Shown in pieces: positions 10,326 to 54,591 of a DNA stretch of 64,000 bases (position 1 is the first letter of the stretch; each line of letters opens with the position of its first letter). The translations under genes were made by a program, and so were the position numbers. Under the pieces are notes generated by a model. It did no database searches. It was not told the DNA's origin and was given only the letters and a program-made list of their open reading frames with translations. The stretch is from the IMG/VR virus record IMGVR_UViG_3300013121_000010, positions 77,903-141,902 of that record; one strand, written 5' to 3'. Origin of the DNA: a virus. Lineage: Duplodnaviria; Heunggongvirae; Uroviricota; Caudoviricetes.

Positions 10326-10354
10326 ATTATACCACATGTTAAGTGACTTGTCAA
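10326..10354 (-). promoter_or_regulatory. sigma70-like promoter TTGACA-17-TATAAT (minus strand) upstream of the tRNA-Thr cluster
   Basis: Reverse complement reads TTGACAagtcacttaacatgtggTATAAT. Confidence 0.55.
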
Positions 10355-11010
10355 GACACGCCTAAGGTAAATAAATAATTGAGAAGTCCACTTCTAGCTA
10401 AATCATTTGGTTCAGTATAACTATCAGCTCTATTTGGTACTAAATCATAACCAACTTTATGATAGCAATATGCTACTGCTGTAGAACAAACTGGATAAAT
10501 ATCATCTATTTTCTCTATTATAGCATCGTTAGAACTTTTGTCAAGAGACTGAAAAAGTCTTAAGCCAAACATTTTCTTTTTAGCCATCCACCATATTCTA
10601 CCCCAACCATAAGGAAGGCCAGTCATATTTCTCATTATGTTTGTTACACGGCGTGGTTCAAAATGAAATAACTCTTCCTTTACACTATTTGTAATATTGT
10701 CAAAATATAATCTTTTTAATGGTTCACTTACTCTATAAACGTCAATTCTATTTTCTTTTAAATCTTGATAGTAAGCTGTTTCTAAAGAAACAGTACGACC
10801 ACCATAACCTTCTCTAAATTCTGTTACTTCAATAAATTCTCTATCTTCTGGACATGCTAAACACTTTGGGAAAGTAGCTAAAGCCGCATGAGAATATTGA
10901 CCATCGCCAGCTTTTTGTATAATCCAAGAAACTAAACTTTTGCCTCTGAAAAGTAAAATATCACCTTCATTAATCGGAGCTTTTTTGTAGTTTACTATTA
11001 TTTTTTTCAT
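10351..11010 (-). CDS. hypothetical protein, possibly a permuted papain-fold (NlpC/P60-like) enzyme
   Basis: YSHAAL (His) precedes a conserved Cys (PVCSTAVAYC), as in permuted papain-like folds; weak. Confidence 0.3.
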   Translation of the reverse strand: MKKIIVNYKKAPINEGDILLFRGKSLVSWIIQKAGDGQYSHAALATFPKCLACPEDREFIEVTEFREGYGGRTVSLETAYYQDLKENRIDVYRVSEPLKRLYFDNITNSVKEELFHFEPRRVTNIMRNMTGLPYGWGRIWWMAKKKMFGLRLFQSLDKSSNDAIIEKIDDIYPVCSTAVAYCYHKVGYDLVPNRADSYTEPNDLARSGLLNYLFTLGVS

Positions 11011-11461
11011 TTGTTATAGCCTCAAGTAAAGCTTCTATCTTACCGATTTTTAATGTAAGTTGTAATTCTCTATCTAAATGTTTATCAACAATATTTTTAA
11101 TATCATTAGATTTTTCATTATAATAAGCAAAGGAAGTCCATACAGGAGCCATAATTGCTGCAATTATTATACATATAGCACCTACCATAGTCCAAAAACT
11201 TTGCCAATCAGTTTTGTTTATATTAGATATTTTGTCAGCTAAAGAATTATAAGTAAGATTATGATTGTCACTTAATCTTGTTATAGCATTTGTTAGTTGT
11301 ATACCCTGTTCTTTTACAGAAGTAGATAATTCTAGTAAATCACGTTGTATAGCTTCTTGTCCCTTTTCAAGAACACTAACTCTTGGTTCAATTTCATGCA
11401 ATAATTTTTCATTTAAGGTGTTACTTGCCATAAAAAAATGGGGATAGTTTCCTACCCCCAT
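10970..11461 (-). CDS. coiled-coil membrane-anchored protein
   Basis: Coiled-coil N-terminal half plus a hydrophobic helix TMVGAICIIIAAIMAPVW. Confidence 0.35.
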   Translation of the reverse strand: MGVGNYPHFFMASNTLNEKLLHEIEPRVSVLEKGQEAIQRDLLELSTSVKEQGIQLTNAITRLSDNHNLTYNSLADKISNINKTDWQSFWTMVGAICIIIAAIMAPVWTSFAYYNEKSNDIKNIVDKHLDRELQLTLKIGKIEALLEAITNEKNNSKLQKSSD

Positions 11462-11487
11462 CCTTGAATTTTAAATTATGTTTTAAA

Positions 11488-12027
11488 TTAGCCAGATGTT
11501 TTAGCTTCGTAATCTGCACGCAATGGAATAGCTAAAGCACCAGTACCAGCTAAACCATGGTCTGAATAGACATATTCACCCGGCAATGCTCTTGTTGGTC
11601 TAGCAGCATCATCGGTGCCAAAACTATCATTAGTTCCTGCACCCTTAGTAGCAACGCCAGTTTCATAATTCCAACTTGTTATATGATATGAACGGCGGTT
11701 TTCTTTAACATGAATACTACGACGGGTTACTGTTCTATGAATACCAGGAGAGTTCAATAAATCACTAGAAGCTCCATTTAAGTATCCATAACCACGAACA
11801 ATAAATTGACCTTCAAACATTCCTCTTGCGAATGTATTAGCTGTAATAGCTTTCATAGTTCCAACATTTGAACTATTTATAGGAAGATTGCCTTGTTTTG
11901 TTATATTACCTTGTGTTAAATTATTTGGTGCTGTAGTTACATTTCTACCATCTACATTACCAGCACGCGGAATAACCGCACCATTATTGTTAGTAGAACC
12001 AGACCCCTTAGCTGTAGTTGTAGCCAT
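11488..12027 (-). CDS. hypothetical protein, possibly a virion component
   Basis: Low-complexity G/N/T-rich sequence; the gene is preceded by a good RBS. Confidence 0.35.
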   Translation of the reverse strand: MATTTAKGSGSTNNNGAVIPRAGNVDGRNVTTAPNNLTQGNITKQGNLPINSSNVGTMKAITANTFARGMFEGQFIVRGYGYLNGASSDLLNSPGIHRTVTRRSIHVKENRRSYHITSWNYETGVATKGAGTNDSFGTDDAARPTRALPGEYVYSDHGLAGTGALAIPLRADYEAKTSG

Positions 12028-16951: not shown

Positions 16952-16986
16952 GTGTTTCTTAATTATATCAGAAACTTCGTTTGTTG

Positions 16987-17418
16987 TCAAGCACCTCTAA
17001 ATTTATGTCCAAGCTCATCAGCCTCACTATTAAGCTCTCTACCAACCCAACCAAAGTGGAACCTATCTATATAATATAAAGCATTTAAACTTTCATATAT
17101 TTTCCTTGCATTACCAATTATTAATTGTAAATTTTCAGATTTGCAAGCATATTCACCAGTAATTTGTCTTACAACTAATTGACTGTCACCAACAATTTGA
17201 ATATGTTTATACCAATCTTTATATGAATAAGCAAATAATAGAGCTTGGTAAGCAGCAAAAGCTTCTGCAACATTATTAGTTTGTGGCAAATCAACTGGAC
17301 ACCTTCCAGCTAATTCACAAAGCTTTCTTTTGGTGGTTAAACACTTACCAACTACTGACCAAACAGCATCGCCGTTTGTATTCCCACCGTCAAAATTTAA
17401 AACTAATGAATTAGACAT
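16987..17418 (-). CDS. rnh: ribonuclease H
   Basis: DGG..G, AEAFA, GDSQLVV and NSEADELG blocks of RNase HI. Confidence 0.75.
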   Translation of the reverse strand: MSNSLVLNFDGGNTNGDAVWSVVGKCLTTKRKLCELAGRCPVDLPQTNNVAEAFAAYQALLFAYSYKDWYKHIQIVGDSQLVVRQITGEYACKSENLQLIIGNARKIYESLNALYYIDRFHFGWVGRELNSEADELGHKFRGA

Positions 17419-21525: not shown

Positions 21526-24006
21526 TTAAACCGAATAACTTTTCAATAATCTTTGCTTTATATAACTTAAATTTGTTGTTTTCTCAGAATATCCATTGTA
21601 AAATACTGTCTGTAAACAATCTAAACTGTTATATATTTTTTTACTTACAGTTTTATAACTCCCGTTTTCTTTAATGAGAGATAAACGCCCTCTTTTTGAA
21701 GTCTTAAAAGATTGTCCAACAGGCTCTTTATAAACATCATATTCTTCATCATCAATTGCAATACTACTACACTTTATAGCAAACCCCATTGTATCTCTAT
21801 CTAATTTTTGTAAAAGACCACCGCCACTTCCAAATGTTAAATTATCTAGTGACCACTTGTTTGTTAAACAAACTGTATCAAGAATATTGAGTAAACTATT
21901 TCTATTAATTCCATCACCCTGAATAACCCTTACTTTAGGATTTAGAACTTTAAATCCTTTGGAGTTAGTAGTGTAACCAAACTTTTCTCCTAGAACATTT
22001 AAGATTTTAGGTAGAACTTCAAGTGGGTCGCCAGAGTTACCACTAATAGATATTCTATGGTTTCTACGAACTATAATAGCCCCACTAGGAACAGTAACAC
22101 AATATACTTTACCATCATAATTTTTAAAAGTTTTTTCTATACCTTGCCCATCTATAAAATCTTGTTTTATAATATGAACAGTATGTACATCATTAAAAAT
22201 ATCTTTTCTATTATCTTTAGCTATACTGTATTTAGTTTTATACCCAGAAAAACAAGCTAATAATTGCACTATTTCAGCATTAATACCAATAGTTGTATCA
22301 TATTTAAATCTTTTATCACTTCTTCTTGTACCATCCCAATAAGAACACTCTTCTATAAATTGTTGACAGTATTTATAATCTATGTTATTAATAATATCAT
22401 TAACCCATTTAAAATCTTTAAAAATACTAAAAGGTACTTTTACATATATAGTTTTTTGATTCTCTCTTTCTTTTTCTTGATGTATAGAATATTCATAACA
22501 TCCTTCTTCACAAATTTTTATAATACGTTCTATTTTTCTTTGTTTGGTAAAATTAAATCTAATCTTAGTAAAACCATTTTTAAATGAATTTTCTTGATTA
22601 TGATTACTTTCATAAGAACCATCTGCTTGAAACGCTATTTTAATAGCGTGTTCTGGAGTAAATAAAATTGGATTTAAACAAGTTAATTTACCAGCCATTA
22701 TATGATTTCTATCATGGTAATACTTAATATCTTTAGCTTGTTTTACAAATATTTCCCCCTTTTTATTTTTAGTATAACATCTATGATTTGGAGTAACTAA
22801 TAAGTCTACCCCACGTTTATCATTAAAAATACTTACCATTTCGCCAATATAATCTTGGCATATGTATTTTACTGGTTTAACAAACTCTATATTACCATTA
22901 TTATATTGAGCTACATATGTATTAATATTGATACTGTTAAATAACTTCCATCCATCATTTGTTAATATTTCAGTTTTTTCATCATAACAGTCTGGCCTAA
23001 CTACAAGCACACCATCCCTATTTAAAACTTTATCTCTTAGTTCTCCACCCCAAATATTTTCACAAGCATTAAAAATGTCATAGCTATCACTAACACAAGC
23101 AACAAAACCTTCTGGATACACTTTAAGCATATTTCTGTATGCCTCTACTTCTCTGCTTTTACCCCACGAAGTAATAGTTGAATGTTCACTTGCCGGTATA
23201 GAGCTTCCACAACTGGAAGTTGTTTCATCAGCATAATATTCATCTAAAAGTTGAATACCTGCAAGAGTATCAGTACCTTTAAAATTTAATAGGTGAGCAG
23301 CAGCACCAATAGCTGCCGTTTCCATACTAGAAACACCTCTAAAACCGAAATCATGCAGTTTATAATCTACATAACTTTCTGGTTCGTCAGAACTAAGTCT
23401 ATGAAACTTTAAAAGTTTCTTTTTAAGGTAATAAGATTGAGAAGCTACAGTAATAGGATACCAAACTTGCATAAGTAAGGTTTCCAAATAATTTGTAAGC
23501 CAAAAGAACCTATCATCTGTATTTTCAATAATCATTAGGACATTTCCTACTGGAACTACTGAACCTTCTGGAACCGCGTTAATAATAACTGGTAAACGCC
23601 CACCGTATTCTTTATACATTTCAGCCCAACCTTGAGTGTTGAACTTGCAATTTGGCATATATTTAGAATGAAAAGCTTCAGCATCTTTAATATCATTCAT
23701 GTTAAATACATGACCAGTTAAATGCTTTTCAATTAAGTATTGTAGACCGAAAAATACGGTTTCTCCATTACCAAAATCATCTTTACCACCACGAGCTTCT
23801 AAATAAGAATAAATTCCTTTTGTTCCTGGTGGGTATTGCTCATAGTGTGATAACTTATAACCGTCTGTTTTAAGAATTAAGTTCACTGTAAAGTTCCTTT
23901 GCTGAATTTTCCCAACTAAACATTTTAGCAGTTTTAATGCCTTCGGCATTTTCAACGCCTGTCTTGCTCTGTAAGAGATTATACATGACTTCGGCAACGC
24001 TGTCAA
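21526..24006 (-). CDS. nadV: nicotinamide phosphoribosyltransferase (NadV/NAMPT) interrupted by an intein
   Basis: LILKTDGYKLSHYEQYPP N-terminus; the RPD-SGDP active-site motif is split by a 318-aa Hint insertion; the true start is probably an internal Met near 23949 (MPKALK...). Confidence 0.8.
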   Translation of the reverse strand: MTALPKSCIISYRARQALKMPKALKLLKCLVGKIQQRNFTVNLILKTDGYKLSHYEQYPPGTKGIYSYLEARGGKDDFGNGETVFFGLQYLIEKHLTGHVFNMNDIKDAEAFHSKYMPNCKFNTQGWAEMYKEYGGRLPVIINAVPEGSVVPVGNVLMIIENTDDRFFWLTNYLETLLMQVWYPITVASQSYYLKKKLLKFHRLSSDEPESYVDYKLHDFGFRGVSSMETAAIGAAAHLLNFKGTDTLAGIQLLDEYYADETTSSCGSSIPASEHSTITSWGKSREVEAYRNMLKVYPEGFVACVSDSYDIFNACENIWGGELRDKVLNRDGVLVVRPDCYDEKTEILTNDGWKLFNSININTYVAQYNNGNIEFVKPVKYICQDYIGEMVSIFNDKRGVDLLVTPNHRCYTKNKKGEIFVKQAKDIKYYHDRNHIMAGKLTCLNPILFTPEHAIKIAFQADGSYESNHNQENSFKNGFTKIRFNFTKQRKIERIIKICEEGCYEYSIHQEKERENQKTIYVKVPFSIFKDFKWVNDIINNIDYKYCQQFIEECSYWDGTRRSDKRFKYDTTIGINAEIVQLLACFSGYKTKYSIAKDNRKDIFNDVHTVHIIKQDFIDGQGIEKTFKNYDGKVYCVTVPSGAIIVRRNHRISISGNSGDPLEVLPKILNVLGEKFGYTTNSKGFKVLNPKVRVIQGDGINRNSLLNILDTVCLTNKWSLDNLTFGSGGGLLQKLDRDTMGFAIKCSSIAIDDEEYDVYKEPVGQSFKTSKRGRLSLIKENGSYKTVSKKIYNSLDCLQTVFYNGYSEKTTNLSYIKQRLLKSYSV
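22036..22989 (-). mobile_element. intein in NadV with a LAGLIDADG-like endonuclease domain
   Basis: VVRPD + C YDEKTEILTNDGW ... ISISGN + SGDPLEV; FQADGSY LAGLIDADG-like motif. Confidence 0.6.
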
Positions 24007-26490: not shown

Positions 26491-26519
26491 ATTATATCGC
26501 AAGAAGGTCGTTTTGTCAA
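26491..26519 (-). promoter_or_regulatory. sigma70-like promoter TTGACA-17-TATAAT (minus strand) upstream of tRNA-Gly
   Basis: Reverse complement reads TTGACAaaacgaccttcttgcgaTATAAT. Confidence 0.55.
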
Positions 26520-27722: not shown

Positions 27723-27751
27723 ATTATACCGGACGGTTCCCGTATTGTCAA
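27723..27751 (-). promoter_or_regulatory. sigma70-like promoter TTGACA-17-TATAAT (minus strand)
   Basis: Reverse complement reads TTGACAatacgggaaccgtccggTATAAT. Confidence 0.55.
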
Positions 27752-37752: not shown

Positions 37753-37830
37753 TAGAGAACAGTTAAACAGGTTAGTTGCTTACGCAACATTCAGTTACAA
37801 TGATTGAAGTAACCCATTTATTCACATCTA
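37753..37830 (-). repeat. conserved 78-nt element, copy 1 (second copy at 41185-41261), immediately upstream of a tRNA
   Basis: TAGAGAACAnTTAAACAGGTTAGT + hairpin + ATTGAAGTAACCCATTTATTCACATCTA; the hairpin is GTTGC-TTAC-GCAAC here and GTGC-TTTC-GCAC in copy 2, a compensatory change. Confidence 0.5.
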
Positions 37831-37842: not shown

Positions 37843-37870
37843 ATTATACCGCAAAAAAAATTTTTGTCAA
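37843..37870 (-). promoter_or_regulatory. sigma70-like promoter TTGACA-16-TATAAT (minus strand)
   Basis: Reverse complement reads TTGACAaaaattttttttgcggTATAAT. Confidence 0.5.
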
Positions 37871-39023: not shown

Positions 39024-39029
39024 ATTTGT

Positions 39030-39195: not shown

Positions 39196-39200
39196 GTTTT

Positions 39201-39229
39201 ATTATACCAGGAACTTAGCGTTCTGTCAA
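39201..39229 (-). promoter_or_regulatory. sigma70-like promoter TTGACA-17-TATAAT (minus strand) inside the 3-prime end of the Ro60 gene
   Basis: Reverse complement reads TTGACAgaacgctaagttcctggTATAAT. Confidence 0.55.
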
Positions 39230-41184: not shown

Positions 41185-41261
41185 TAGAGAACAATTAAAC
41201 AGGTTAGTGCTTTCGCACGACTAATTAATTCTAATTGAAGTAACCCATTTATTCACATCTA
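41185..41261 (-). repeat. conserved 78-nt element, copy 2
   Basis: See copy 1 at 37753-37830. Confidence 0.5.
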
Positions 41262-41433: not shown

Positions 41434-41546
41434 ATAAAATTAAGCTAGTAGGTCAGGTAACGCTCCTGCAACAACGGATTAACAGTCCGCCCGAAAAACT
41501 TCTTTCATCCTACTAATATGAGAGGAATCCTCTCATTTGTTCTTTC

Positions 41547-41575
41547 ATTATACCGGAAGCTTTCCTTCCTGTCAA
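41547..41575 (-). promoter_or_regulatory. sigma70-like promoter TTGACA-17-TATAAT (minus strand) with a structured roughly 95-nt leader before tRNA-Leu
   Basis: Reverse complement reads TTGACAggaaggaaagcttccggTATAAT; the leader holds hairpin GAGAGGAUUCCUCUC and a long-range stem TAGTAGG...CCTACTA. Confidence 0.55.
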
Positions 41576-41589
41576 GCCCCATCTCTAAA

Positions 41590-41960
41590 AATTTTTAAAG
41601 CGTAGCTTTACCATAAAACGGAGTTTTTAACTCATTAAACCTATCAGCATCAAAGTTTAAAATAAAATCCGTAGTACCATCATCAAAGATATATTCTTTA
41701 TCGCCGATTGATACTGAACATGTACGCACACTTATTATAAGCAACGTATTTACCAACTTCGATAGAACTTCCAGCTAAATCTAACATATCTTTACAACTT
41801 TCTTTTCCTGAAAACCTTTATATGTTTCTTTAAGTGTAACACTTAAAACTTTAGAGTCATCACCGTTAGAATCTTTAACGAGAACCTCAAGTTCTCCGTC
41901 TAGCTTTTCAAGTTCTTTGATTAAGTCTTTAACCAACATAGTGCTATACACTCCTTACAA
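41590..41960 (-). pseudogene. decayed fragments of the CPIALAIKEK-family / MLDSVGKK-family gene pair
   Basis: Minus-strand frames encode ...FDADRFNELKTPFYGKATL (matches the C-terminus of ORF 43889-44185) and MLDLAGSSIEVGKYVAY (matches the N-terminus of ORF 43563-43895), interrupted by stops. Confidence 0.45.
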
Positions 41961-42053: not shown

Positions 42054-42140
42054 AACAGTCCCGAATAAAGGAATTGAACCTCTTGACCGCCACCATACTT
42101 AATAGGTCAACTGTTTTACAGACAGCCGTATGGGATAGCC
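42054..42140 (-). ncRNA. tRNA-Tyr (GTA)-like gene lacking a canonical D-arm, with a large variable stem-loop (paralogue of 44204-44288)
   Basis: Anticodon stem GCTGT/ACAGT with loop CTGTAAA; only about 10 nt (ATCCCATACG) between acceptor and anticodon stem; variable stem TTGACC/GGTCAA. Confidence 0.4.
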
Positions 42141-42174
42141 GGGGATTAAGTAGCGCAATCAGGACTCGAATCAG

Positions 42175-42247: not shown

Positions 42248-42347
42248 GTTTTCTTAGGTATTCCTTTTAATTTTTATTCCCTAAGTGGCAAAACTTTAGT
42301 ATTAGAAGGCTTCTGTGACCAACATAACTAAAATCTTGTCAAAGTGT

Positions 42348-42420
42348 TAGATACTGGAGTCGCACCAATCAGTCCTACCTTATGAGGGTTGGTTGAGCCT
42401 ACGCCCATCTGGCTTGTTCA
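42348..42420 (-). ncRNA. tRNA-Met (CAT)-like with T-loop TGCGACT and a mismatched acceptor stem
   Basis: Anticodon stem AACC/GGTT with loop CTCATAA; T-arm ATTGG-TGCGACT-CCAGT; paralogue at 44488-44560. Confidence 0.4.
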
Positions 42421-42423
42421 TTC

Positions 42424-42452
42424 ATTATACCGGAAGCATCGCTTCCTGTCAA
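42424..42452 (-). promoter_or_regulatory. sigma70-like promoter TTGACA-17-TATAAT (minus strand)
   Basis: Reverse complement reads TTGACAggaagcgatgcttccggTATAAT. Confidence 0.55.
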
Positions 42453-42453
42453 G

Positions 42454-42524
42454 TCCCCATTGCTGGAATCGAGCCAGCTTCTTATCCGTGTCATAGATAC
42501 ATTCTACCATTGAACTAAACGGGG
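42454..42524 (-). tRNA. tRNA-Val (GAC), second copy
   Basis: Anticodon stem TATCT/GGATA with loop ATGACAC; T-arm GCTGG-CTCGATT-CCAGC. Confidence 0.45.
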
Positions 42525-42529: not shown

Positions 42530-42610
42530 GCAGGTTTGTGACAAATCGAATGCCCTAGCTTTCGCAACTGTTTTGGAGGCAGTTTCCCATCCCACTGGGG
42601 AGCAAACCTG
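42530..42610 (-). tRNA. tRNA-Trp (CCA) with an 8-bp terminal helix and a long variable region
   Basis: Terminal stem CAGGTTTG/CAAACCTG; D stem CCCC/GGGA; anticodon loop CTCCAAA; paralogue at 44561-44640 has terminal stem CATATTTG/CAAATATG (compensatory). Confidence 0.45.
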
Positions 42611-43230
42611 TATTACATTGGAAGGATTATTGATTACCTTCAACCATCCTTAAATCCGATATTGTTCAGCCATACACTTATAGAGTAGCTAGTTCTATAA
42701 TTAACGTGTAGCTCGTTTGGTTACAAGCAAAGGAAAGCAGACTTCAACATTGTTCTTATTCCTTACCACCCTCACATCAGGTTGGCCAACCCAATGCTAT
42801 TAGTGCTTTATACCGAATTTACATTCTGAACGTTAGTAGGACACTTTTCAGTGTACTCCCAACTGTATTTAGGGCAGTCAACCCTATTTTCTACCACAAT
42901 GTAAGTAGCCCCGCATGGAAGTCGAACCATGTTCCCAAGATTAACCTACTACTATTAGTTTCCTAATCAGAAATATTTTTATTTCTTTGTAGTCTGGACT
43001 ATATCATCAACCAAATTGGTTGTTTCGCGTTTAGTCTCTGAGGAACCCTTTCGGTTTCCTGCTGATTGCCCAATATTTTAGATTGTCACGATTGTAATCG
43101 TACTAAAATCTCTAAGGGGTTTCCAGCATATAGCGAAATTCATTTTACATATTACTATGTAAACGCTCTTATTTTATGGAATCAAGTCTTGTGCTAATCC
43201 AGTTAAAGCTTCGGAGCCATTTTCTTCTTA

Positions 43231-43259
43231 CATTATATCAGATGCTTCGCATCTTGTCA
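43231..43259 (-). promoter_or_regulatory. sigma70-like promoter TTGACA-17-TATAAT (minus strand) firing into the ORF-free 42610-43225 region
   Basis: Reverse complement reads TTGACAagatgcgaagcatctgaTATAAT. Confidence 0.55.
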
Positions 43260-43553
43260 AGTTCTCTCTATTGTAAAACTAATTTCTCTCAATTTGTTAA
43301 AATTTGCTGTATCAAAATTCTTAATAAACTTATCAACTTTATTACAATCTTTAATAGAAGTAACTTTATATCTCTTCTTAGTATATCTATCTATAAATAT
43401 TTCAATAGACCCAGAATCACCAACAATTGCTGTTTTATGTAGCTTTTCTTTAATAGCTAAAGCAACTGGGCAAAATTGACATATATCCAGTGACTTTATT
43501 TTATTTTTAGCCTGTTCAATATGCTTACGCTTAACTTCAATTTTAATACTCAT
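43257..43553 (-). CDS. CPIALAIKEK-motif family protein (paralogue A2)
   Basis: KRKHIEQAKNK...CQFCPVALAIKEKLHK; three intact paralogues plus one decayed copy. Confidence 0.5.
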   Translation of the reverse strand: MSIKIEVKRKHIEQAKNKIKSLDICQFCPVALAIKEKLHKTAIVGDSGSIEIFIDRYTKKRYKVTSIKDCNKVDKFIKNFDTANFNKLREISFTIERT

Positions 43554-43562: not shown

Positions 43563-43895
43563 TTAATCGCTAAAATCTAACACACCTTTATGTAACCACT
43601 TTTCTATACACTTTTTAAGTGTACATGAATTTGGTATACCATTAAAAAAATCTTTTACAATTTCTAGCGGTTCAACCACTACAAACTTTCCTGCTTCTTT
43701 AAAAGTTGTAATAATTTTAATTGTTAGTTGTGGTTTATAGTCTACGCTAAGTCTTTGAATTTTAACCTTATTTTTATTTTCATCAATATCAATAACTTTT
43801 CCGGTTATCATTCCATATTCAGCGTCAACATTACCTTTACCCCCATAAGAGATAAAATCACCAATATTAACCTTTTTACCAACAGAATCTAACAT
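43563..43895 (-). CDS. hypothetical protein (MLDSVGKK family)
   Basis: Translationally coupled to the upstream paralogue; a fragment homologue lies in the 41590-41960 pseudogene. Confidence 0.45.
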   Translation of the reverse strand: MLDSVGKKVNIGDFISYGGKGNVDAEYGMITGKVIDIDENKNKVKIQRLSVDYKPQLTIKIITTFKEAGKFVVVEPLEIVKDFFNGIPNSCTLKKCIEKWLHKGVLDFSD

Positions 43896-44185
43896 AGTTT
43901 TACAACTTCCAATGTAAGATAAAATGGTGTTTTCAATTCATTATATTTTTCACCATCAAAAGATTCTACAAAATCTTTAACGTGCAAATTGCCATAACTA
44001 TAACGCTTATCATCTATGAAGATTCTAGCACCACTATCAACATCAACCCTCTTATGAGTTTTCTCTTTAATAGCTAGAGCAATAGGGCAGCATGAGCTTA
44101 AAACAATACCATTTTTATGTCTAATTTTCTTTGCTCTTTCAATATGGCGTTTAAGAACTTTTACTTTAATCAACTTCATACCCAT
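43889..44185 (-). CDS. CPIALAIKEK-motif family protein (paralogue A1)
   Basis: KRHIERAKKI...SCCPIALAIKEKTHK. Confidence 0.5.
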   Translation of the reverse strand: MGMKLIKVKVLKRHIERAKKIRHKNGIVLSSCCPIALAIKEKTHKRVDVDSGARIFIDDKRYSYGNLHVKDFVESFDGEKYNELKTPFYLTLEVVKLC

Positions 44186-44203
44186 TCCTTTCTTTTAGTG
44201 CCA

Positions 44204-44288
44204 ACCAAGGGAATCGAACCCCCTGCCGCCACCATACATATTAATGGCAGTTGATTTACAGTCAACCGTATGGGATAGCTGGCTTAAG
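44204..44288 (-). ncRNA. tRNA-Tyr (GTA)-like gene lacking a canonical D-arm (paralogue of 42054-42140)
   Basis: Acceptor GCCAGCT/GGTTGGC; anticodon stem GTTGA/TCAAC with loop CTGTAAA; variable stem CTGCC/GGCAG enclosing an 18-nt loop; T-arm GGGGG-TTCGATT-CCCTT. Confidence 0.4.
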
Positions 44289-44448: not shown

Positions 44449-44477
44449 ATTATAACAGAGGGAAAACCTCTTGTCAA
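44449..44477 (-). promoter_or_regulatory. sigma70-like promoter TTGACA-17-TATAAT (minus strand)
   Basis: Reverse complement reads TTGACAagaggttttccctctgtTATAAT. Confidence 0.55.
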
Positions 44478-44487
44478 GTGGCAGATA

Positions 44488-44560
44488 TTGGAGTCGCACC
44501 AATCAAATTAACCTTATGAGGGTTAGTCGAGCCTTCGCCCATCTGCAAGCATATTTGTGA
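44488..44560 (-). ncRNA. tRNA-Met (CAT)-like with T-loop TGCGACT (paralogue of 42348-42420)
   Basis: Anticodon stem AACC/GGTT with loop CTCATAA; T-arm ATTGG-TGCGACT-CCAAT. Confidence 0.4.
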
Positions 44561-44741: not shown

Positions 44742-44780
44742 ATTTATAGGATTTTGTCCTACTTTGTATTATATCGGAAG

Positions 44781-45089
44781 TTACGGTTTATGTAAAGTGT
44801 CCCTAGCAATTTTAAATTTAATTGGGCGAGCTTTATTAAATAAACCGTTATCAAAATTACTAATAAAATTATCAATTGCGGAAACATACCTGTTTCCTAA
44901 AACTTCGTATACTTTACCATCTATATTAATATCTTCTGGAGATATAACATAAACTTTTTTATGAGTCTTTTCCTTAATTGCTAATGCAATTGGACAAGAA
45001 TTAGAGCTAACGCAATCATATTTTTGTGCAATTTTAATTGCATCTTTAATATGTTTTCTAGTAACTTGAATTTCAATCATATGTTTCAC
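44781..45089 (-). CDS. CPIALAIKEK-motif family protein (paralogue A3)
   Basis: RKHIKDAIKI...NSCPIALAIKEKTHK. Confidence 0.5.
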   Translation of the reverse strand: MKHMIEIQVTRKHIKDAIKIAQKYDCVSSNSCPIALAIKEKTHKKVYVISPEDINIDGKVYEVLGNRYVSAIDNFISNFDNGLFNKARPIKFKIARDTLHKP

Positions 45090-45419: not shown

Positions 45420-45448
45420 ATTATAGCAGATGGTTTACCATCTGTCAA
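45420..45448 (-). promoter_or_regulatory. sigma70-like promoter TTGACA-17-TATAAT (minus strand) upstream of tRNA-Leu
   Basis: Reverse complement reads TTGACAgatggtaaaccatctgcTATAAT. Confidence 0.55.
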
Positions 45449-45535: not shown

Positions 45536-45564
45536 ATTGTACCAGACGTTTCGTATTTTGTCAA
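45536..45564 (-). promoter_or_regulatory. sigma70-like promoter TTGACA-17-TACAAT (minus strand)
   Basis: Reverse complement reads TTGACAaaatacgaaacgtctggTACAAT. Confidence 0.5.
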
Positions 45565-46069: not shown

Positions 46070-46098
46070 TATTCTAACACAGATTAGCCGTCTTGTCA
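46070..46098 (-). promoter_or_regulatory. sigma70-like promoter TTGACA-17-TAGAAT (minus strand)
   Basis: Reverse complement reads TTGACAagacggctaatctgtgtTAGAAT. Confidence 0.45.
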
Positions 46099-46116
46099 AG
46101 TGGGCGAAGCCGCCCA

Positions 46117-46392
46117 CTAAACAAACTTCCTTACATTAAATTGTTCTCTTAATAAGAGAAGTAAATTTTCAGTAATGTATTGAGAAGATTCAGCTTCCAT
46201 CACAGCCATTACAGGTTCATCAGGCAGAAAATTAATAATGCGATTTAAAACATCTTCAAGCTCCTTTTTATTTTCAGAAGCAGCTTGATAAGCGGCAGTT
46301 TCTAAAACTGCAATAAACTGTTTAGAAGAAAGACAATGATTACATTTACCACCACTGTCTAAACAATGAATGCACTTAATTGTATTTTTCAT
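46117..46392 (-). CDS. hypothetical protein
   Basis: CxxC...CxxC N-terminus. Confidence 0.35.
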   Translation of the reverse strand: MKNTIKCIHCLDSGGKCNHCLSSKQFIAVLETAAYQAASENKKELEDVLNRIINFLPDEPVMAVMEAESSQYITENLLLLLREQFNVRKFV

Positions 46393-46734
46393 AAGTGGAC
46401 CGGGCGGGTACTGCCCCCGCGTACTAAAATAAATTTAAAGATTTGAATAATATACAGGTTTCTTTAAGATTTTAAGGTAATCTTATAACCTACCTTACGA
46501 TTTGAATTTTAACTATTAAAGGTTTTAAGTTAAAACCACTCTAATTAAAGAGCAAATGAGTAATCGACGTTTTTGTTGCTCTTACGAGCAACTTTAGTGC
46601 TTGTTGCACTCAAACCACGAACACTGAACATACTATCGTTTGCTGTTACTTTTTTGACTGTTTTTAGGTAGCCTCAGCCTCTACCACCTGCCAGCACTTT
46701 AAATTTAAGCTAGGCGAATCTATTTCCGGCCCAT

Positions 46735-46775
46735 AAAAAAGCCAGCCGGGATTTTAATTACCGGCTGACAGTATT
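46735..46775 (-). terminator. candidate intrinsic terminator (minus strand) overlapping a promoter
   Basis: Minus-strand RNA CAGCCGG-uaauuaaaauc-CCGGCUG followed by GCUUUUUUAU. Confidence 0.45.
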
Positions 46776-46809
46776 CTATCACAAAAATGTTGGCTTGTCA
46801 AACAAACCT

Positions 46810-52124: not shown

Positions 52125-52691
52125 TTACTTTTTCTCCTCTGGTGCAGGTAATTGTTTTTCTGATTTGAAGAAAATCATTTTTCTTGGACTATATTCATAC
52201 CAAACCTTTTCAGATTTACTATATTTTAAAGTTGTACCTAAGATAAAATCATTATCACCAAATTCTAAATAAGTAGCTGGAACATTAGTTCCTTTAAAAT
52301 AATATTGTTTATCTTCACCTTTAAGTATTGTAAATCCATTTATTTCAATAGCTGACTTTTCATCCCTTTTAATAGATTTATATTCTATCAAGTCTACAGG
52401 CCATTGTTCTTTAATAATTGAATAATCATTTATTCTTAAAATAATAGAATTATCATCTTCTCTAACCCTATATTTACCTTCTACTTTTACCCAAACATTA
52501 TCTTCAAAAATTTCTTTTTGTTTTGTATCATTATTATTATAAATACTATATTCATTATTAAATGCATAAATACCTACATTACCATCTAAAGACTTAAAAC
52601 TCCTATCCTTATAAAGTTTTACAACCAATTCGTCACAAAAAACAGTAGAACTAAACAACAATAATAAAATACTACTTAATAAAGTTTTCAT
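52125..52691 (-). CDS. secreted hypothetical protein
   Basis: Signal peptide MKTLLSSILLLLFSSTVFC. Confidence 0.35.
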   Translation of the reverse strand: MKTLLSSILLLLFSSTVFCDELVVKLYKDRSFKSLDGNVGIYAFNNEYSIYNNNDTKQKEIFEDNVWVKVEGKYRVREDDNSIILRINDYSIIKEQWPVDLIEYKSIKRDEKSAIEINGFTILKGEDKQYYFKGTNVPATYLEFGDNDFILGTTLKYSKSEKVWYEYSPRKMIFFKSEKQLPAPEEKK

Positions 52692-53187
52692 ACCAATCAG
52701 GTGACTTTCGCCCCTTCTCCCATTTACAACCAGTTTTCATTTCATACCTTTTAACAAGATTATAATAATTGCGGTATCCCGCAACACTATCATTTAAATC
52801 AATACATTCATTACCATACTTGCCAAAACATTGAGGTATAGCTAAGCCTTTATTAGTATAGCTCTTTAAACGAAAAAATCCAGCCCATTCCAAAACAGAA
52901 TGGCTGGCGTGTTGTTTTCCATATCTGAATATGTATTCAGTTGATATAGCTAAACCATGAGTAAGTGCCCACTCATAATTATCTTCACTATCTTGACACC
53001 ATAAAACAGTTGGGTGTTTTAAATGTGGTTTATTTTCCTTATATGGTATATCTGCTTTATAAGTACCCATATTATGATGAGCAAAACATAAAATTTGTGC
53101 GGTTTCCAACACCATTTTATGTACATGTCTATCACATAAAAATTCAGCAGCTTTTACTGGATTGTTATCTAGTCTAAATATATTCAT
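52672..53187 (-). CDS. hypothetical protein
   Basis: ORF only. Confidence 0.35.
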   Translation of the reverse strand: MNIFRLDNNPVKAAEFLCDRHVHKMVLETAQILCFAHHNMGTYKADIPYKENKPHLKHPTVLWCQDSEDNYEWALTHGLAISTEYIFRYGKQHASHSVLEWAGFFRLKSYTNKGLAIPQCFGKYGNECIDLNDSVAGYRNYYNLVKRYEMKTGCKWEKGRKSPDWYENFIK

Positions 53188-53780
53188 TTTTGTAGCTGAA
53201 GCTTTCGTTTTTGCTTTCGCTTACGCAACGCTCGTTCGCCCCTTGTCTTTCGTTCATATTGAGGCTTAAAAAGAATTTCTTCTTTTTCTCCTTTAATAAT
53301 AGCTTCGTGATAATCAATCAGTTTTGAAACACTATCAAATCTCTTGACCAAAGCAAGGAAGTTATTAGGCTGATATTTAGAAAGTGAGTAATAAGGGGTG
53401 GTTTCGTGAGCTTCCATATCACCATAAATACTTCTAGCTGGAACACTAAAGAAATGGCTATATTGTCTCACTCTATATTTACCACACTTACTTTCATAAA
53501 CATTTACCTTATTTCCATAAAGTTCCTTTTCCCTAAGAGTTGGTTCTACTGAAATAAAATATTCTGAAAGTTCACGAAGATATTTTGGTTCCTCATTAAT
53601 TTCAGTATCAGCGACAACTTTACTCTTTTCCTTTGCTCTCTCAATAGACAATCTAATGTCAGCTTGAGTTGGCTTGCTACCATTCTTAAAAGTAAATGGG
53701 CTACCACACTTTACACAGACAAAAGAACGCGGGCCGCAGTTATGGCCGCAGCTAGGACAGGTTTTGGACCCCTTAGGCAT
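53184..53780 (-). CDS. zinc-ribbon protein with a basic C-terminus
   Basis: CPSCGHNCGPRSFVCVKCG. Confidence 0.35.
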   Translation of the reverse strand: MPKGSKTCPSCGHNCGPRSFVCVKCGSPFTFKNGSKPTQADIRLSIERAKEKSKVVADTEINEEPKYLRELSEYFISVEPTLREKELYGNKVNVYESKCGKYRVRQYSHFFSVPARSIYGDMEAHETTPYYSLSKYQPNNFLALVKRFDSVSKLIDYHEAIIKGEKEEILFKPQYERKTRGERALRKRKQKRKLQLQK

Positions 53781-53820
53781 TTTAATTTCCCTTTCTGCGT
53801 CCTATCTTACCACATTTTTT

Positions 53821-54591
53821 TTAATTGTCAAGCTGTAAAATATTTTCAAAACCAGAGTTTTTTGAATATATTAATTTATCATCAGTGGATAGTTCTTTAA
53901 TTGGAGTATATCTACAACATCTAATTTTTGCATATTCTTTCTTAGGGACAGAAACAATATCAGTTGGGTCTACTTTTACAAGTAAAATACAAGGTTCTGT
54001 TTTTACATAATCATAAGTACCTACATGCAAACCGCTTGCACTACACATAGCATCATTTAATTCTACTTCATGTCTTGGCATTTCAACAGGTATATCTATT
54101 TTAATAGACATTTTTTCAGTGTGACAATCAGTATAACAATTATCGCCAGTCTTTTTTACATATTTAAAACCAAGAATATTACCTTCTTTATCAATAGCAA
54201 CACCATTATTACCCATCCACCTTAGTACAGACTCTCTACTTTGTTCTATAGGATTTTTTTCAAGTTTTTCCATAAATCTAAGTAATGGTAATGCTTCACA
54301 CCCATTTTCTATAATCTCATTAATCATCTTTTCAATAGCTAGATTGTCATAAGCAATATTATTGTATAATAGTTCTCCATCTTTAATAGAAAAATAACAA
54401 CTTTCTAATTTAGTTTTTAATTCATTATACATTTTTGTAATTTTATAAACCTTATATCTATAAGAAAAGTTTGATGTTAATGCAGAATAAACATCTTTAT
54501 ATCTAATATGATTAATAGGAAAATGATATTCCTTACCTTCAATAAAGATATTTAGACCAGATTTAGATGAGTTTGAGTAAGTGATATACAT
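53821..54591 (-). CDS. rIIB: rIIB protein
   Basis: C-terminal half aligns with T4 rIIB: DCHT/MPRHEV/CSASGLHVG/VKVDPTDIVSVP/AKIRCCRY against T4 DCHS/MPRTRV/CSRGLHVC/VKVHPRDVVSIP/AKMRTCQY. Confidence 0.8.
   Translation of the reverse strand: MYITYSNSSKSGLNIFIEGKEYHFPINHIRYKDVYSALTSNFSYRYKVYKITKMYNELKTKLESCYFSIKDGELLYNNIAYDNLAIEKMINEIIENGCEALPLLRFMEKLEKNPIEQSRESVLRWMGNNGVAIDKEGNILGFKYVKKTGDNCYTDCHTEKMSIKIDIPVEMPRHEVELNDAMCSASGLHVGTYDYVKTEPCILLVKVDPTDIVSVPKKEYAKIRCCRYTPIKELSTDDKLIYSKNSGFENILQLDN

What the first reader, a model, noticed from the sequence alone, without database searches (positions are those of the whole stretch)
10326..53830. Family of near-perfect sigma70 promoters (TTGACA-17-TATAAT, minus strand), each with a different GC-rich dyad symmetry in the spacer
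At least 14 sites (10326, 26491, 27723, 37843, 39201, 41547, 42424, 43231, 44449, 45420, 45536, 46070, 46764 and about 53795) match TTGACA-N16/17-TATAAT exactly or with one change. Most lie directly upstream of tRNA genes. Nearly every spacer contains its own GC-rich inverted repeat, for example ggaag-gaaag-cttcc, agagg-ttttc-cctct, gatgg-taaa-ccatc, agatgc-gaa-gcatct and ggaag-cgatg-cttcc. Spacers do not normally carry conserved sequence, so recurrent but different dyads suggest structural DNA features (cruciform or supercoiling sensitivity) or sites for a dimeric regulator with relaxed specificity. At 46735-46796 the promoter sits immediately before an intrinsic-terminator hairpin, so a transcript started at the promoter would begin inside the 5-prime arm of the hairpin and may escape termination, while read-through from upstream would stop.
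Basis: seen in the sequence. Interest (0 to 1): 0.6.

Follow-up and report, generated by a model that had tools for sequence, protein, structure and literature searches.

The report
Phage promoters with built-in stem-loops
An uncultured large phage drives its tRNA genes from about 20 near-perfect host-type promoters, and six of them carry a short hairpin-forming sequence between the two promoter boxes; this composite promoter/stem-loop design was already described in T4-type phages ("PeSL" cassettes), so it is a variant of a known element rather than a new mechanism.

Summary
The promoter family is real. There are 14 exact TTGACA-N16-18-TATAAT sites, all on the minus strand, against 0.18 expected, plus about 8 sites with one mismatch. 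Most sit 10-26 nt upstream of tRNA genes or 40 nt upstream of a tmRNA gene.

The dyad claim is only partly right. Six of 23 spacers (27751, 41575, 42452, 43260, 44477, 45448) fold significantly better than shuffles. Five have perfect stems of at least 5 bp, against 0.3 expected. The other spacers are at chance.

The arms differ between sites and covary, which argues for base pairing rather than a shared protein operator.

This architecture matches the "promoter-early stem-loop" (PeSL) cassettes of T4-type phages (Arbiol 2010; Comeau 2014). Those have near-perfect sigma70 promoters with a stem-loop most often between -35 and -10, and the stem-loop attenuates read-through. I reproduced the pattern in phage phi1 (6 of 26 promoters).

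The window phage encodes rIIA and rIIB. It also shows a shared 47-nt cassette, duplicated tRNA modules and a decayed -35-only remnant, which fits cassette-mediated shuffling.

It differs from described PeSLs in three ways: there is no AT-rich upstream tract, the downstream genes are tRNAs rather than ORFans, and the stems are weaker.

Verdict: a variant of a known kind, of modest interest.

The parts
41547..41575 (-). Exact TTGACA-17-TATAAT promoter. Spacer dyad GGAAG-gaaag-CTTCC at 41555-41569. It follows a decayed small ORF; tRNA-Leu lies 113 nt downstream.
   Evidence: (-7.5 kcal/mol; 0 of 200 shuffles as stable)
42424..42452 (-). Exact promoter. Spacer dyad GGAAGC-gat-GCTTCC at 42432-42446. 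It starts 1 nt after the discriminator base of tRNA-Val(gac).
   Evidence: -9.0 kcal/mol
43232..43260 (-). Exact promoter. Spacer dyad AGATGC-gaa-GCATCT at 43240-43254. The TGA stop of ORF 43257-43553 lies inside the -35 box. It ends 13 nt upstream of an intron-containing tRNA-Lys(ttt).
   Evidence: (-6.3 kcal/mol)
44449..44477 (-). Exact promoter. Spacer dyad AGAGG-ttttc-CCTCT at 44457-44471. In RNA it can extend to 9 pairs, including one G-U pair, reaching into both hexamers. It abuts tRNA-Met(cat) 44478-44547 and ends 15 nt upstream of tRNA-Arg(tct).
   Evidence: (-8.3 kcal/mol)
45420..45448 (-). Exact promoter. The 7-bp dyad CAGATGG-taaa-CCATCTG at 45427-45444 uses the last two bases of the -35 box and the TG of the extended -10. 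It lies between tRNA-Thr(tgt) and tRNA-Leu(taa), 11 nt upstream of the latter.
   Evidence: (-9.7 kcal/mol; 0 of 200 shuffles as stable)
27723..27751 (-). Exact promoter. Spacer dyad ACGG-gaa-CCGT at 27733-27743. A second hairpin, GCGGT-ata-ACCGC, lies just upstream. It ends 11 nt upstream of a tRNA called by Rfam at 27620-27711.
   Evidence: (-6.9 kcal/mol)
39201..39229 (-). Exact promoter with a weak 4-bp dyad GAAC-gctaa-GTTC (39211-39223), not significant by energy. The TAA stop of the TROVE gene lies in the spacer. A strong hairpin (-12.8 kcal/mol) follows downstream.
16962..16990 (-). Exact promoter with a weak AT-rich 4-bp dyad AAAC-gaa-GTTT (16972-16982), not significant. The TGA stop of the upstream ORF lies in the -35 box. 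It ends 10 nt upstream of tRNA-Lys(ctt).
10326..10354 (-). Exact promoter without a dyad. The TGA stop lies in the -35 box. It ends 12 nt upstream of tRNA-Thr(ggt).
26491..26519 (-). Exact promoter without a dyad. The TGA stop lies in the -35 box. It ends 17 nt upstream of tRNA-Gly(tcc).
37843..37870 (-). Exact promoter with a 16-nt spacer (A5T8 run) and no GC-rich dyad. It ends 96 nt upstream of tRNA-Val(tac).
2001..2028 (-). Exact promoter (16-nt spacer) inside the PhoH-like ORF, without a dyad.
10517..10544 (-). Exact promoter (16-nt spacer) inside ORF 10351-11010, without a dyad.
23978..24006 (-). Exact promoter inside the 3' part of the glycosyltransferase ORF, ahead of the NAMPT gene. 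No spacer dyad. The hairpin AATGCC-gaa-GGCATT lies at 23936-23950 downstream.
45536..45564 (-). One-mismatch promoter (TACAAT) with only a 3-bp dyad. The TGA stop lies in the -35 box. It ends 14 nt upstream of tRNA-Thr(tgt).
44768..44796 (-). One-mismatch promoter (TTTACA) without a dyad. It ends 26 nt upstream of tRNA-Ser.
46071..46099 (-). One-mismatch promoter (TAGAAT with a TGTG extended -10) that drives a small ORF.
46099..46118 (-). Strong hairpin AGTGGGCG-gctt-CGCCCACT that overlaps promoter 46071-46099 by one base, its last T being the first base of the -35 box. It has no U-tract and directly follows the stop codon of ORF 46117-46392. This is a stem-loop placed upstream of and overlapping the -35 box.
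   Evidence: -14.7 kcal/mol
46773..46801 (-). One-mismatch promoter (TAGAAT) for the tmRNA gene. A G-U-containing hairpin at 46792-46808 overlaps its -35 box, and a T5 run lies in the spacer.
46735..46769 (-). Terminator-like hairpin (9-bp stem, 11-nt loop, T6 run) that begins 4 nt after the -10 box of promoter 46801 and ends 3 nt before the tmRNA 5' end.
   Evidence: -15.1 kcal/mol in read-through RNA; -8.0 to -12.3 if the transcript starts at 46765-46767
46393..46732 (-). tmRNA gene driven by promoter 46801.
   Evidence: RF00023, 50.1 bits, E=8.6e-17
60804..60832 (-). One-mismatch promoter (TAAAAT with a TGTG extended -10) without a dyad, upstream of an ORF.
41537..41582 (-). A 47-nt cassette (8 nt upstream of the -35 box to 10 nt past the -10 box) that is 89% identical to 42414-42460. 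The sequences flanking the two copies are unrelated.
42319..42342 (-). Decayed promoter copy TTGACAAGATTTTAGTTATGTTGG after a pseudo-tRNA(CAT). It is homologous to promoter 44477 but has lost both dyad arms and the -10 box, like a 'half-PeSL' remnant.

Best explanation
WHAT IT IS. These are strong host-sigma70-type early promoters of a large phage that carries rIIA and rIIB. Each one drives a tRNA, a small group of tRNAs, the tmRNA or a small ORF. [quoted passage not shown] This composite promoter/stem-loop layout is the one described as PeSL (promoter-early stem-loop) in T4-type phages.

MOST LIKELY MECHANISM. The dyad acts in RNA, not in DNA. RNA polymerase arriving from an upstream unit transcribes the hairpin, followed by the A/U-rich -10 sequence (UAUAAU). 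It is then attenuated or terminated inside the next promoter. Transcripts started at that promoter begin about 7 nt past the -10 box and never contain the hairpin, so they are unaffected. Each tRNA unit is thereby insulated and dosed by its own promoter in a genome with almost no intergenic space.

SECOND CONSEQUENCE. The repeated cassettes of about 30-50 nt may serve as recombination points that duplicate and reshuffle tRNA modules.

SHOWN: the promoter family, the excess of dyads, covariation of the arms, equivalence to the layout in phage phi1, and cassette and module duplication.

INFERRED: promoter activity, terminator or attenuator activity, and recombination through the cassettes.
For: PROMOTER FAMILY. 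14 exact sites against 0.18 expected, all on the coding strand.

DYAD EXCESS. 5 spacers with perfect stems of at least 5 bp against 0.30 in shuffles. Summed folding energy is 4 sd below shuffles.

COVARIATION. In the fixed register i+j=16, 52 of 102 cells are Watson-Crick pairs against 39.6 by column permutation (p=0.0014). The pair 4:12 occurs as A-T, T-A, G-C and C-G.

SPACER COMPOSITION. Spacers are GC-enriched in an AT-rich genome (AT 0.555 against 0.69).

LITERATURE. [quoted passage not shown] One such stem-loop reduced lacZ expression as much as rrnB T1 did. In T4/PST the stem-loops are often AGNA-loop-TCNT (PMC2839356; PMC4122927). The arms here are AGAnG/CnTCT.

DIRECT CHECK IN PHAGE PHI1. 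6 of 26 consensus promoters in 50 kb carry spacer dyads of at least 5 bp against 0.38 expected. That is the same fraction as here.

CONTROLS. The feature is not generic. Among 98 unique viral spacers with the same promoter grammar, 2 have such dyads, which is chance (1.4). Two phage contigs with 18 and 23 dense consensus promoters have none.

PHAGE CONTEXT. rIIA (E=8e-110), rIIB, thymidylate synthase, PhoH and RNR.

SHUFFLING SIGNS. A 47-nt cassette shared at 89% identity between unrelated contexts, duplicated tRNA modules, and a -35-only remnant.
Against: 1. The stems are weaker than in phi1 (-6 to -10 against -13 to -15 kcal/mol).
2. Only 3-4 U follow each stem in the next 8 nt, so they fail a standard intrinsic-terminator criterion.
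3. There is no excess of G-U over A-C mismatches (11 against 13), so nothing shows directly that the pairing is in RNA rather than DNA.
4. Three dyads follow tRNA 3' ends, where a hairpin could hinder exonucleolytic 3' trimming.
5. Two descriptive PeSL features are absent: the AT-rich tract upstream of the -35 box (AT 0.60 against a genome value of 0.69), and the downstream Shine-Dalgarno sequence plus ORFan.
6. Hairpins in the wider promoter neighbourhood are only weakly enriched (p=0.02-0.09).
7. T4-type affiliation rests on rII and nucleotide-metabolism genes only.
8. The published terminator test covers a single stem-loop from a different phage.
Confidence: 0.55

Rival explanations
1. RNA hairpins that act as stability or processing punctuation rather than terminators. 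After RNase P or another endonuclease cuts the polycistronic precursor, the hairpin blocks 3'-to-5' exonucleases and defines the 3' end of the upstream mRNA or tRNA precursor.
For: Three of the six strong dyads (27751, 41575, 43260) lie a few nt after ORF stop codons; for 43260 the stop is inside the -35 box. A similar hairpin without a U-tract sits directly after the stop of ORF 46117-46392. The weak U-tracts argue against efficient termination.
Against: All three tRNA-promoter-tRNA junctions carry strong dyads, although tRNA 3' ends need trimming rather than protection. tRNA-tRNA junctions without a promoter (38.6-39.0 kb) have no such hairpins. The hairpin therefore tracks the promoter, not the 3' end.
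Confidence: 0.15
2. A DNA-level structure. Negative supercoiling extrudes a small cruciform or hairpin in the spacer, which changes the -35/-10 geometry and makes promoter strength depend on supercoiling.
For: Pairing covaries without strand asymmetry (G-T 11 against A-C 13), which is compatible with DNA. Three loops are GAA closed by C-G, including GCGAAGC in 43260. From memory, this is a very stable DNA mini-hairpin motif, and small hairpins extrude at phage N4 early promoters. All six strong dyads are in promoters with perfect hexamers and 17-bp spacing.
Against: The stems are only 5-7 bp, and predicted single-strand DNA hairpin energies are -3.4 to -6.0 kcal/mol. No helper protein or virion RNA polymerase is evident in the window. 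The identical layout in phi1 was tested as an RNA-level terminator. Most promoters of the family lack the dyad, so it is not needed for promoter function.
Confidence: 0.1
3. An operator for a dimeric phage or host regulator that sits in the spacer and switches these promoters on or off.
For: The consensus half-sites RGAnG and CnTCY are centred about 10 bp apart, one helical turn, as in helix-turn-helix operators. Spacer operators do exist. LexA-type AGAAC-N4-GTTCT boxes appeared in 11 of 121 metagenomic promoters with an 18-nt spacer. An identical CGGAAG-aaa-CTTCCG dyad recurs in two promoters of an unrelated viral contig.
Against: In those true or probable operators the arm sequence is the same at every site. 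Here the arms differ (GGAAG, AGATGC, AGAGG, GATGG, ACGG), and the variable position stays complementary, which a protein does not require. The register shifts by one in 45448. The shared positions (T-17, C-16, Y-15, G-14) are also conserved in promoters without a dyad, so they look like RNA polymerase contacts.
Confidence: 0.08
4. No function. The conserved spacer ends (RRA... and ...TCY) are complementary by accident and give 3 bp for free. Duplication of cassettes, plus correction of quasi-palindromes by template switching, then produces and maintains perfect short palindromes.
For: Column composition alone already gives 39% pairing in the register. Promoters 41575 and 42452 are duplicates. 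Only a minority of promoters have the dyad. A decayed copy lost both arms together.
Against: Pairing exceeds the column-permutation null (p=0.0014). GC-rich spacers run against the genome's composition. The same nested layout recurs independently, with quite different arms, in phi1/RB49, but not in other phages with dense consensus promoters.
Confidence: 0.12

Closest known systems
PeSL (promoter-early stem-loop) cassettes of coliphages RB49 and phi1 (Arbiol et al. 2010, PMC2839356)
   Same: Near-perfect TTGACA-N17-TATAAT promoters in many copies on the early-gene strand. A subset has a GC-rich stem-loop filling the spacer between -35 and -10 (6 of 26 in phi1, 6 of 23 here). The arms differ between copies. 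The stop codon of the upstream gene lies at or in the cassette. There is a conserved initial transcribed sequence. The cassettes sit at the edges of duplicated or rearranged modules.
   Different: The phi1 stems are Gn/Cn tracts of 6-7 bp (-13 to -15 kcal/mol), while here they are 5-7 mixed bp (-6 to -10 kcal/mol). phi1 has an A-rich tract upstream of the -35 box (AT 0.68 against a genome value of 0.60), while here the upstream region is less AT-rich than the genome (0.60 against 0.69). phi1 cassettes end in a Shine-Dalgarno sequence plus the ATG of an ORFan, while here most end 10-26 nt before a tRNA. Terminator activity and mini-circle formation were shown for RB49/phi1, not here.
PeSLs of T4/PST and KVP40/nt-1 (Comeau et al. 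2014, PMC4122927)
   Same: T4/PST stem-loops are often AGNA-loop-TCNT, close to the AGAnG-loop-CnTCT arms seen here. 'Half' PeSLs that keep only the -35 box are reported next to indels, as at 42319-42342 here.
   Different: In PST and nt-1 the stem-loop usually lies just upstream of the promoter, and the hexamers are degenerate (TTTACW / TAYWAT). Here the hexamers are perfect and the stem-loop lies in the spacer.
Canonical intrinsic terminators that overlap the next promoter in compact phage genomes
   Same: A hairpin at the end of one unit lies directly next to or overlaps the next promoter. The element at 46735-46769 is a standard hairpin plus T6 run.
   Different: The spacer hairpins are followed by GGUAUAAU or similar (3-4 U in 8 nt) rather than a U-tract.
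Phage N4 early promoters, which are DNA hairpins recognised by the virion RNA polymerase (PMC4496689 listed; details from memory)
   Same: A 5-7 bp stem with a 3-nt purine-rich loop inside a phage early promoter.
   Different: N4 promoters have no sigma70 hexamers and are read by a phage-encoded virion polymerase. Here the hairpin is flanked by perfect host-type -35 and -10 boxes, and its centre lies near position -23.
Repressor operators in promoter spacers (for example LexA boxes)
   Same: [quoted passage not shown]
   Different: Operators keep the same arm sequence at every site (AGAAC-N4-GTTCT in 11 unrelated contigs). Here the arms differ and covary.

Membership tests
PeSL (promoter-early stem-loop) cassette | Near-consensus sigma70-type early promoter (TTGACA-N17-TATAAT) present in many copies | tested here: met
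   14 exact and 8 one-mismatch sites, all on the coding strand, against 0.18 and about 2 expected
PeSL (promoter-early stem-loop) cassette | [quoted passage not shown] | tested here: met
   Six of 23 spacers fold significantly. The fraction in the reference phage phi1 is the same. Other placements occur (overlapping the -35 box at 46099 and 46801; downstream of the -10 box at 46801, 41575 and 39229), but overall neighbourhood enrichment is weak.
PeSL (promoter-early stem-loop) cassette | AT-rich tract upstream of the -35 box | tested here: not met
   The 25 nt upstream have AT 0.60 against a genome value of 0.69. In phi1 the values are 0.68 against 0.60. A conserved C precedes TTGACA here.
PeSL (promoter-early stem-loop) cassette | 3' end carries a Shine-Dalgarno sequence and the start codon of a downstream (often ORFan) gene | tested here: not met
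   Ten promoters are followed within 10-40 nt by a tRNA or tmRNA. Only a few (46099, 60832, 24006) precede ORFs.
PeSL (promoter-early stem-loop) cassette | Located in hyperplastic regions of a T4-type genome | tested here: inconclusive
   The dyad-bearing copies cluster in the 41.5-45.5 kb region of tRNAs, small paralogous ORFs and pseudogenes. T4-type affiliation rests on rIIA/rIIB (about 32% identity), Td, PhoH and RNR. No structural core genes lie in the window.
PeSL (promoter-early stem-loop) cassette | The stem-loop terminates or attenuates upstream transcription | not testable with these tools
   Only energetics are available: -6.3 to -9.7 kcal/mol, with 3-4 U in the following 8 nt.
PeSL (promoter-early stem-loop) cassette | Cassettes serve as recombination points (indels, module shuffling, decayed half-cassettes) | tested here: inconclusive
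   A 47-nt cassette is shared at 89% identity between unrelated flanks. tRNA modules are duplicated at 44.2-44.6 and 42.1-42.6 kb. A -35-only remnant lies at 42319-42342. No close relative exists for an indel comparison.
Intrinsic (Rho-independent) terminator | GC-rich hairpin followed directly by a U-tract | tested here: not met
   None of the spacer hairpins was reported by the terminator scan (at least 5 T in 8 nt), and they have 2-4 T in that stretch. The criterion is met only by 46735-46769 and, roughly, by 46792-46808.
Operator of a sequence-specific dimeric repressor | The same half-site sequence recurs at all regulated promoters | tested here: not met
   The arms are GGAAG, AGATGC, AGAGG, GATGG and ACGG. 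The variable position 4:12 occurs as four different Watson-Crick pairs. This contrasts with the invariant LexA-type boxes.
N4-type hairpin promoter | Hairpin promoter without sigma70 hexamers, read by a phage virion RNA polymerase | tested here: not met
   The hairpins are flanked by perfect -35 and -10 hexamers at 17-bp spacing. No giant polymerase ORF lies in the window; the largest ORF is the RNR with an intein. The N4 features are recalled from memory.

The most novel reading that the evidence does not exclude
The cassettes are the engine that builds and reshuffles this phage's tRNA repertoire. Each tRNA, or small group of tRNAs, would be a mobile unit bounded by promoter/stem-loop cassettes that recombine with one another, as PeSL mini-circles do for ORFans. 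This would explain why nearly every tRNA has its own perfect promoter, and why modules are duplicated and decaying. A more radical version is that the spacer hairpins extrude in DNA and act as supercoil-sensitive switches of otherwise over-strong promoters.
Probability: 0.25. Interest if true: 0.5.

Novelty: new variant of a known kind. Interest (0 to 1): 0.3.

Why it matters
It extends the PeSL promoter/stem-loop design from a few cultured T4-type phages (of E. coli, Yersinia and Vibrio) to a distant uncultured AT-rich phage. It also extends the design from ORFan genes to tRNA, tmRNA and other stable-RNA genes. If the nested hairpins do attenuate read-through, they are a very compact insulator: a terminator hidden inside the next promoter and invisible to that promoter's own transcripts. 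That would be useful as a design idea and for annotating transcription units in metagenomic phages. If the cassettes also mediate recombination, they offer a mechanism for how phage tRNA arrays are assembled and turned over. The basic phenomenon is published, so the gain is incremental.

Tried and rejected
1. CLOSE RELATIVES FOR ORTHOLOGOUS COMPENSATORY CHANGES. None exist. There was no megablast hit in 50,697 phage records. The best non-self TROVE homologue among 5.8 billion proteins is 61% identical. The source contig (148.7 kb, JGI) could not be fetched.

2. DISTANT RELATIVES L001-L010 (43-61% TROVE identity). They have sigma70-like promoters but no excess of spacer dyads, so the dyads are not a family-wide conserved trait.

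3. PATTERN SEARCH for TTGACA-RGAnG-N5-CnTCYGn-TATAAT in IMG/VR gave 0 hits.

4. METAGENOME SCAN. I mistakenly wrote 13 N instead of 12, which gave an 18-nt spacer. The hits still served as a control. They revealed LexA-type spacer operators; apart from these only 4 of 121 spacers (about 3%) had dyads of at least 5 bp.

5. THE CORRECTLY SPACED PATTERN in viral contigs gave a chance-level dyad frequency.

6. G-U AGAINST A-C ASYMMETRY, used to separate RNA from DNA pairing, was uninformative (11 against 13).

7. TWO-MISMATCH PROMOTER CANDIDATES were rejected as noise (22 on the minus strand, 18 on the plus strand).

8. IDEAS CONSIDERED AND DROPPED. Shine-Dalgarno/anti-Shine-Dalgarno mimicry by the arms: the spacing to the ATG in TATAATG is about 17 nt. 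boxB-like antitermination hairpins: the loops are not conserved. A MerR-type operator: the spacer is 17 bp, not 19-20 bp. CRISPR-like or MITE-like repeats: the 29-nt units lie 0.1-1.2 kb apart and have no terminal inverted repeats.

9. Rfam found no family for the spacer hairpins or for the suspected intron.

10. LITERATURE. General searches on spacer inverted repeats and cruciforms found nothing specific. The term 'PeSL' did.

Full report
CONTEXT

The window is about 30% GC, and every credible gene is on the minus strand.

It encodes these proteins:
- a ribonucleotide reductase large subunit with an intein;
- NAMPT;
- a TROVE/Ro60 homologue;
- DUF1501;
- an RNA ligase;
- rIIA (PHROG E=8e-110) and rIIB;
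- thymidylate synthase, PhoH and HNH endonucleases.

It also carries 26 tRNAs at default settings. More appear at relaxed settings, together with a tmRNA.

rIIA is about 32% identical to that of T4-type phages. The source is a 148.7-kb metagenomic contig. Its nearest relatives in 5.8 billion proteins are only about 60% identical in the TROVE protein. It is absent from the phage and IMG/VR collections at the DNA level. The window is therefore the early or auxiliary-gene region of a large, uncultured, distantly T4-like phage.

THE OBSERVATION

TTGACA-N16-18-TATAAT occurs exactly 14 times, always on the minus strand, against 0.18 expected. One mismatch adds 8 sites. Two-mismatch sites are no more frequent on the coding strand than on the other strand.

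The family has further conserved positions:
- a C before the -35 box;
- T at -17 and G at -14, each in 15 of 17 promoters;
- C or G at -16, and T or C at -15;
- a purine-rich initial transcribed sequence (GAAAGAACAA).

Nine promoters end 10-26 nt before a tRNA, and one ends 40 nt before the tmRNA. In five cases the TGA inside TTGACA is the stop codon of the upstream ORF. The genome is extremely compact.

THE DYADS

Five of 22 spacers hold perfect stems of at least 5 bp, against 0.30 in composition-preserving shuffles (none of 2000 shuffles exceeded 3). Ten hold stems of at least 4 bp, against 2.1.

By energy, six promoters stand out: 27751, 41575, 42452, 43260, 44477 and 45448, at -6.3 to -9.7 kcal/mol. 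The other 17 are indistinguishable from shuffles. 'Nearly every spacer' is therefore wrong, and 'a significant subset' is right.

In the fixed register where spacer position i pairs with position 16-i, 52 of 102 cells are Watson-Crick pairs. Column permutation, which preserves the conserved and partly self-complementary consensus, gives 39.6 (p=0.0014). Position 4:12 appears as A-T, T-A, G-C and C-G. This is covariation, which points to base pairing rather than to a shared protein site.

G-T and A-C mismatches are equally frequent (11 against 13), so the data do not say whether pairing matters in RNA or in DNA.

Promoters 41575 and 42452 are copies of one 47-nt cassette (89% identity). The number of independent dyads is therefore about five.

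WHAT IT IS

The layout is the one published as PeSL, 'promoter-early stem-loop'. In coliphages RB49 and phi1, repeated cassettes combine a promoter identical to the sigma70 consensus with a stem-loop. [quoted passage not shown] One such stem-loop reduced lacZ expression as much as the rrnB T1 terminator did. Recombination between cassettes shuffles the flanked genes (PMC2839356). A follow-up paper found PeSLs in T4/PST and KVP40/nt-1. The T4/PST stems are often AGNA-loop-TCNT, and decayed half-cassettes lie beside indels (PMC4122927).

I applied my own scan to 50 kb of phage phi1. Six of 26 consensus promoters carry spacer dyads of at least 5 bp (for example TTGACA-GGGGATCggtGATCCCCt-TATAAT), against 0.38 expected. 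That is the same fraction as in the window.

The feature is not a general property of phage consensus promoters. Among 98 unique viral spacers with the same grammar (C-TTGACA-N12-TCYGn-TATAAT-G), 2 have such dyads, which is chance. Two viral contigs with 18 and 23 densely packed consensus promoters have none.

HOW IT PROBABLY WORKS

A hairpin in the spacer lies entirely upstream of that promoter's own start site. It can therefore appear only in RNA made by polymerases reading through from upstream. Followed by the A/U-rich -10 sequence, it would attenuate or stop those polymerases inside the next promoter. The promoter's own transcripts would be untouched. Each tRNA unit would then be insulated and expressed from its own promoter. 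This step is inferred by analogy.

Here the stems are weaker than in phi1 (-6 to -10 against -13 to -15 kcal/mol). Only 3-4 U follow them, so I expect attenuation rather than full termination.

The tmRNA promoter shows related placements. One hairpin overlaps its -35 box, with a T5 run in the spacer. A canonical hairpin plus T6 run starts 4 nt after its -10 box. A transcript starting at 46765-46767 keeps 5-7 of the 9 stem pairs (-8 to -12 against -15 kcal/mol).

SIGNS OF CASSETTE-ASSOCIATED REARRANGEMENT

- The 47-nt cassette is shared between unrelated flanks.
- The Trp / tRNA(CAT) / Arg(tct) / Tyr-like module at 44.2-44.6 kb is duplicated at 42.1-42.6 kb, with an inserted Val(gac)-plus-promoter unit.
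- The copy of promoter 44477 in the duplicate has lost both dyad arms and its -10 box, leaving TTGACAAGATTTTAGTTATGTTGG.
- Three paralogous ORFs of about 100 aa, plus a decayed fourth copy, lie among the cassettes.

These signs fit PeSL-type shuffling. They do not prove it, because no close relative is available for comparison.

DIFFERENCES FROM DESCRIBED PeSLs

[quoted passage not shown] It is less AT-rich than the genome (0.60 against 0.69), whereas phi1 shows the opposite.
- Most cassettes are followed by a tRNA rather than by a Shine-Dalgarno sequence and an ORFan.
- The stems are mixed sequence rather than G/C tracts.
- T4-type membership of the phage is only partly established.
- Hairpins in the wider promoter neighbourhood are only weakly enriched.

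Because two descriptive PeSL features fail, I file this as a variant that works like a PeSL, not as a plain member.

RIVALS

1. RNA hairpins as 3'-end stabilisers. This suits the ORF-proximal cases. It does not suit the three tRNA-promoter-tRNA junctions. It also does not explain why tRNA-tRNA junctions without promoters lack hairpins.
2. DNA cruciform or supercoiling switch. This is not excluded. GAA triloops, including GCGAAGC, are suggestive. However, the stems are short, and most family members lack them.
3. Operator of a dimeric regulator. This is disfavoured because the arms differ and covary. Real spacer operators recovered as a by-product (LexA-type AGAAC-N4-GTTCT in 11 contigs) keep identical arms.
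4. No function (chance complementarity of conserved ends plus duplication and quasi-palindrome correction). This is weakened by the permutation test, by the GC enrichment and by the independent recurrence in phi1.

VERDICT

The promoters are real and the dyads are real in a subset. The closest match is a published element class. The novelty lies in the tRNA and stable-RNA context and in the distant, uncultured host phage. Interest is modest.

Noticed in passing
window 42905-43218 (minus): tRNA-Lys(ttt) interrupted in the anticodon loop by a 239-nt intron. ARAGORN finds it only with the intron option. By eye the intron carries group-I-like motifs (cagagactaaa, gatatagtcc), but Rfam reports no Intron_gpI match. 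It is driven by promoter 43260.
   Followed up: partly
window 46393-46732 (minus): A phage-encoded tmRNA (RF00023, 50 bits). By eye it has a G3-U70 acceptor pair and an unusually long tag reading frame that ends ...DYSFAL. ARAGORN did not call it.
   Followed up: partly
window 39215-40780 and 39024-39200 (minus): A TROVE/Ro60 homologue is followed by promoter 39229 and 177 nt of non-coding sequence, which begins with a strong hairpin (-12.8 kcal/mol), before tRNA-Phe. This could be a Y-RNA-like partner RNA. TROVE homologues are widespread in related large phage contigs (3279 hits at E<=1e-30).
   Followed up: no
window 44478-44547, 42530-42609, 27620-27711, 42340-42413, about 44195-44280 and about 42060-42150 (minus): tRNA genes missed at default settings: tRNA-Met(cat), a second tRNA-Trp(cca) and a 92-nt tRNA called by Rfam. 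There is also an apparent pseudo-tRNA(CAT), and two odd Tyr(GTA)-like structures with long extra arms that no tool calls.
   Followed up: partly
window 10351-10353, 16987-16989, 26516-26518, 43257-43259, 45561-45563: In five promoters the TGA within the -35 hexamer TTGACA is the stop codon of the upstream ORF. In 39229 the stop codon lies in the spacer.
   Followed up: yes
window 41185-41261 and 37753-37830: A repeat of about 78 nt (83% identity). One copy lies downstream of tRNA-Asp and the other downstream of promoter 37870. Its nature is unknown; it could be a small RNA or the start of an ORF.
   Followed up: no
window 42610-42904 (minus): About 300 nt with no ORF and no Rfam match, between the intron-containing tRNA-Lys and the second tRNA-Trp. 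It could be an uncharacterised non-coding RNA.
   Followed up: no
window 43257-43553, 43889-44185, 44781-45089; decayed copy at about 41590-41800: Three paralogous ORFs of about 100 aa (47-48% identity, conserved CPIALAIKEK motif, phrog_19191, function unknown) are interleaved with the tRNA units. By eye, a fourth, frameshifted copy precedes promoter 41575.
   Followed up: partly
window 4297-8349 (minus): The ribonucleotide reductase large subunit is interrupted by an intein with a LAGLIDADG homing-endonuclease domain.
   Followed up: no
L012-L131 (metagenome hits): Eleven unrelated metagenomic contigs carry TTGACA-(18-nt spacer)-TATAAT promoters with an AGAAC-N4-GTTCT dyad in the spacer. This is the Gram-positive-type LexA box (recalled from memory) and is probably from lexA or recA-type promoters.
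   Followed up: no
L246 1812 and 3059; L248 8036 and 8630: A 52% GC viral contig has two promoters that share the same spacer dyad, CGGAAG-aaa-CTTCCG. The identical arms suggest an operator, or a PeSL-like cassette in an unrelated phage.
   Followed up: no
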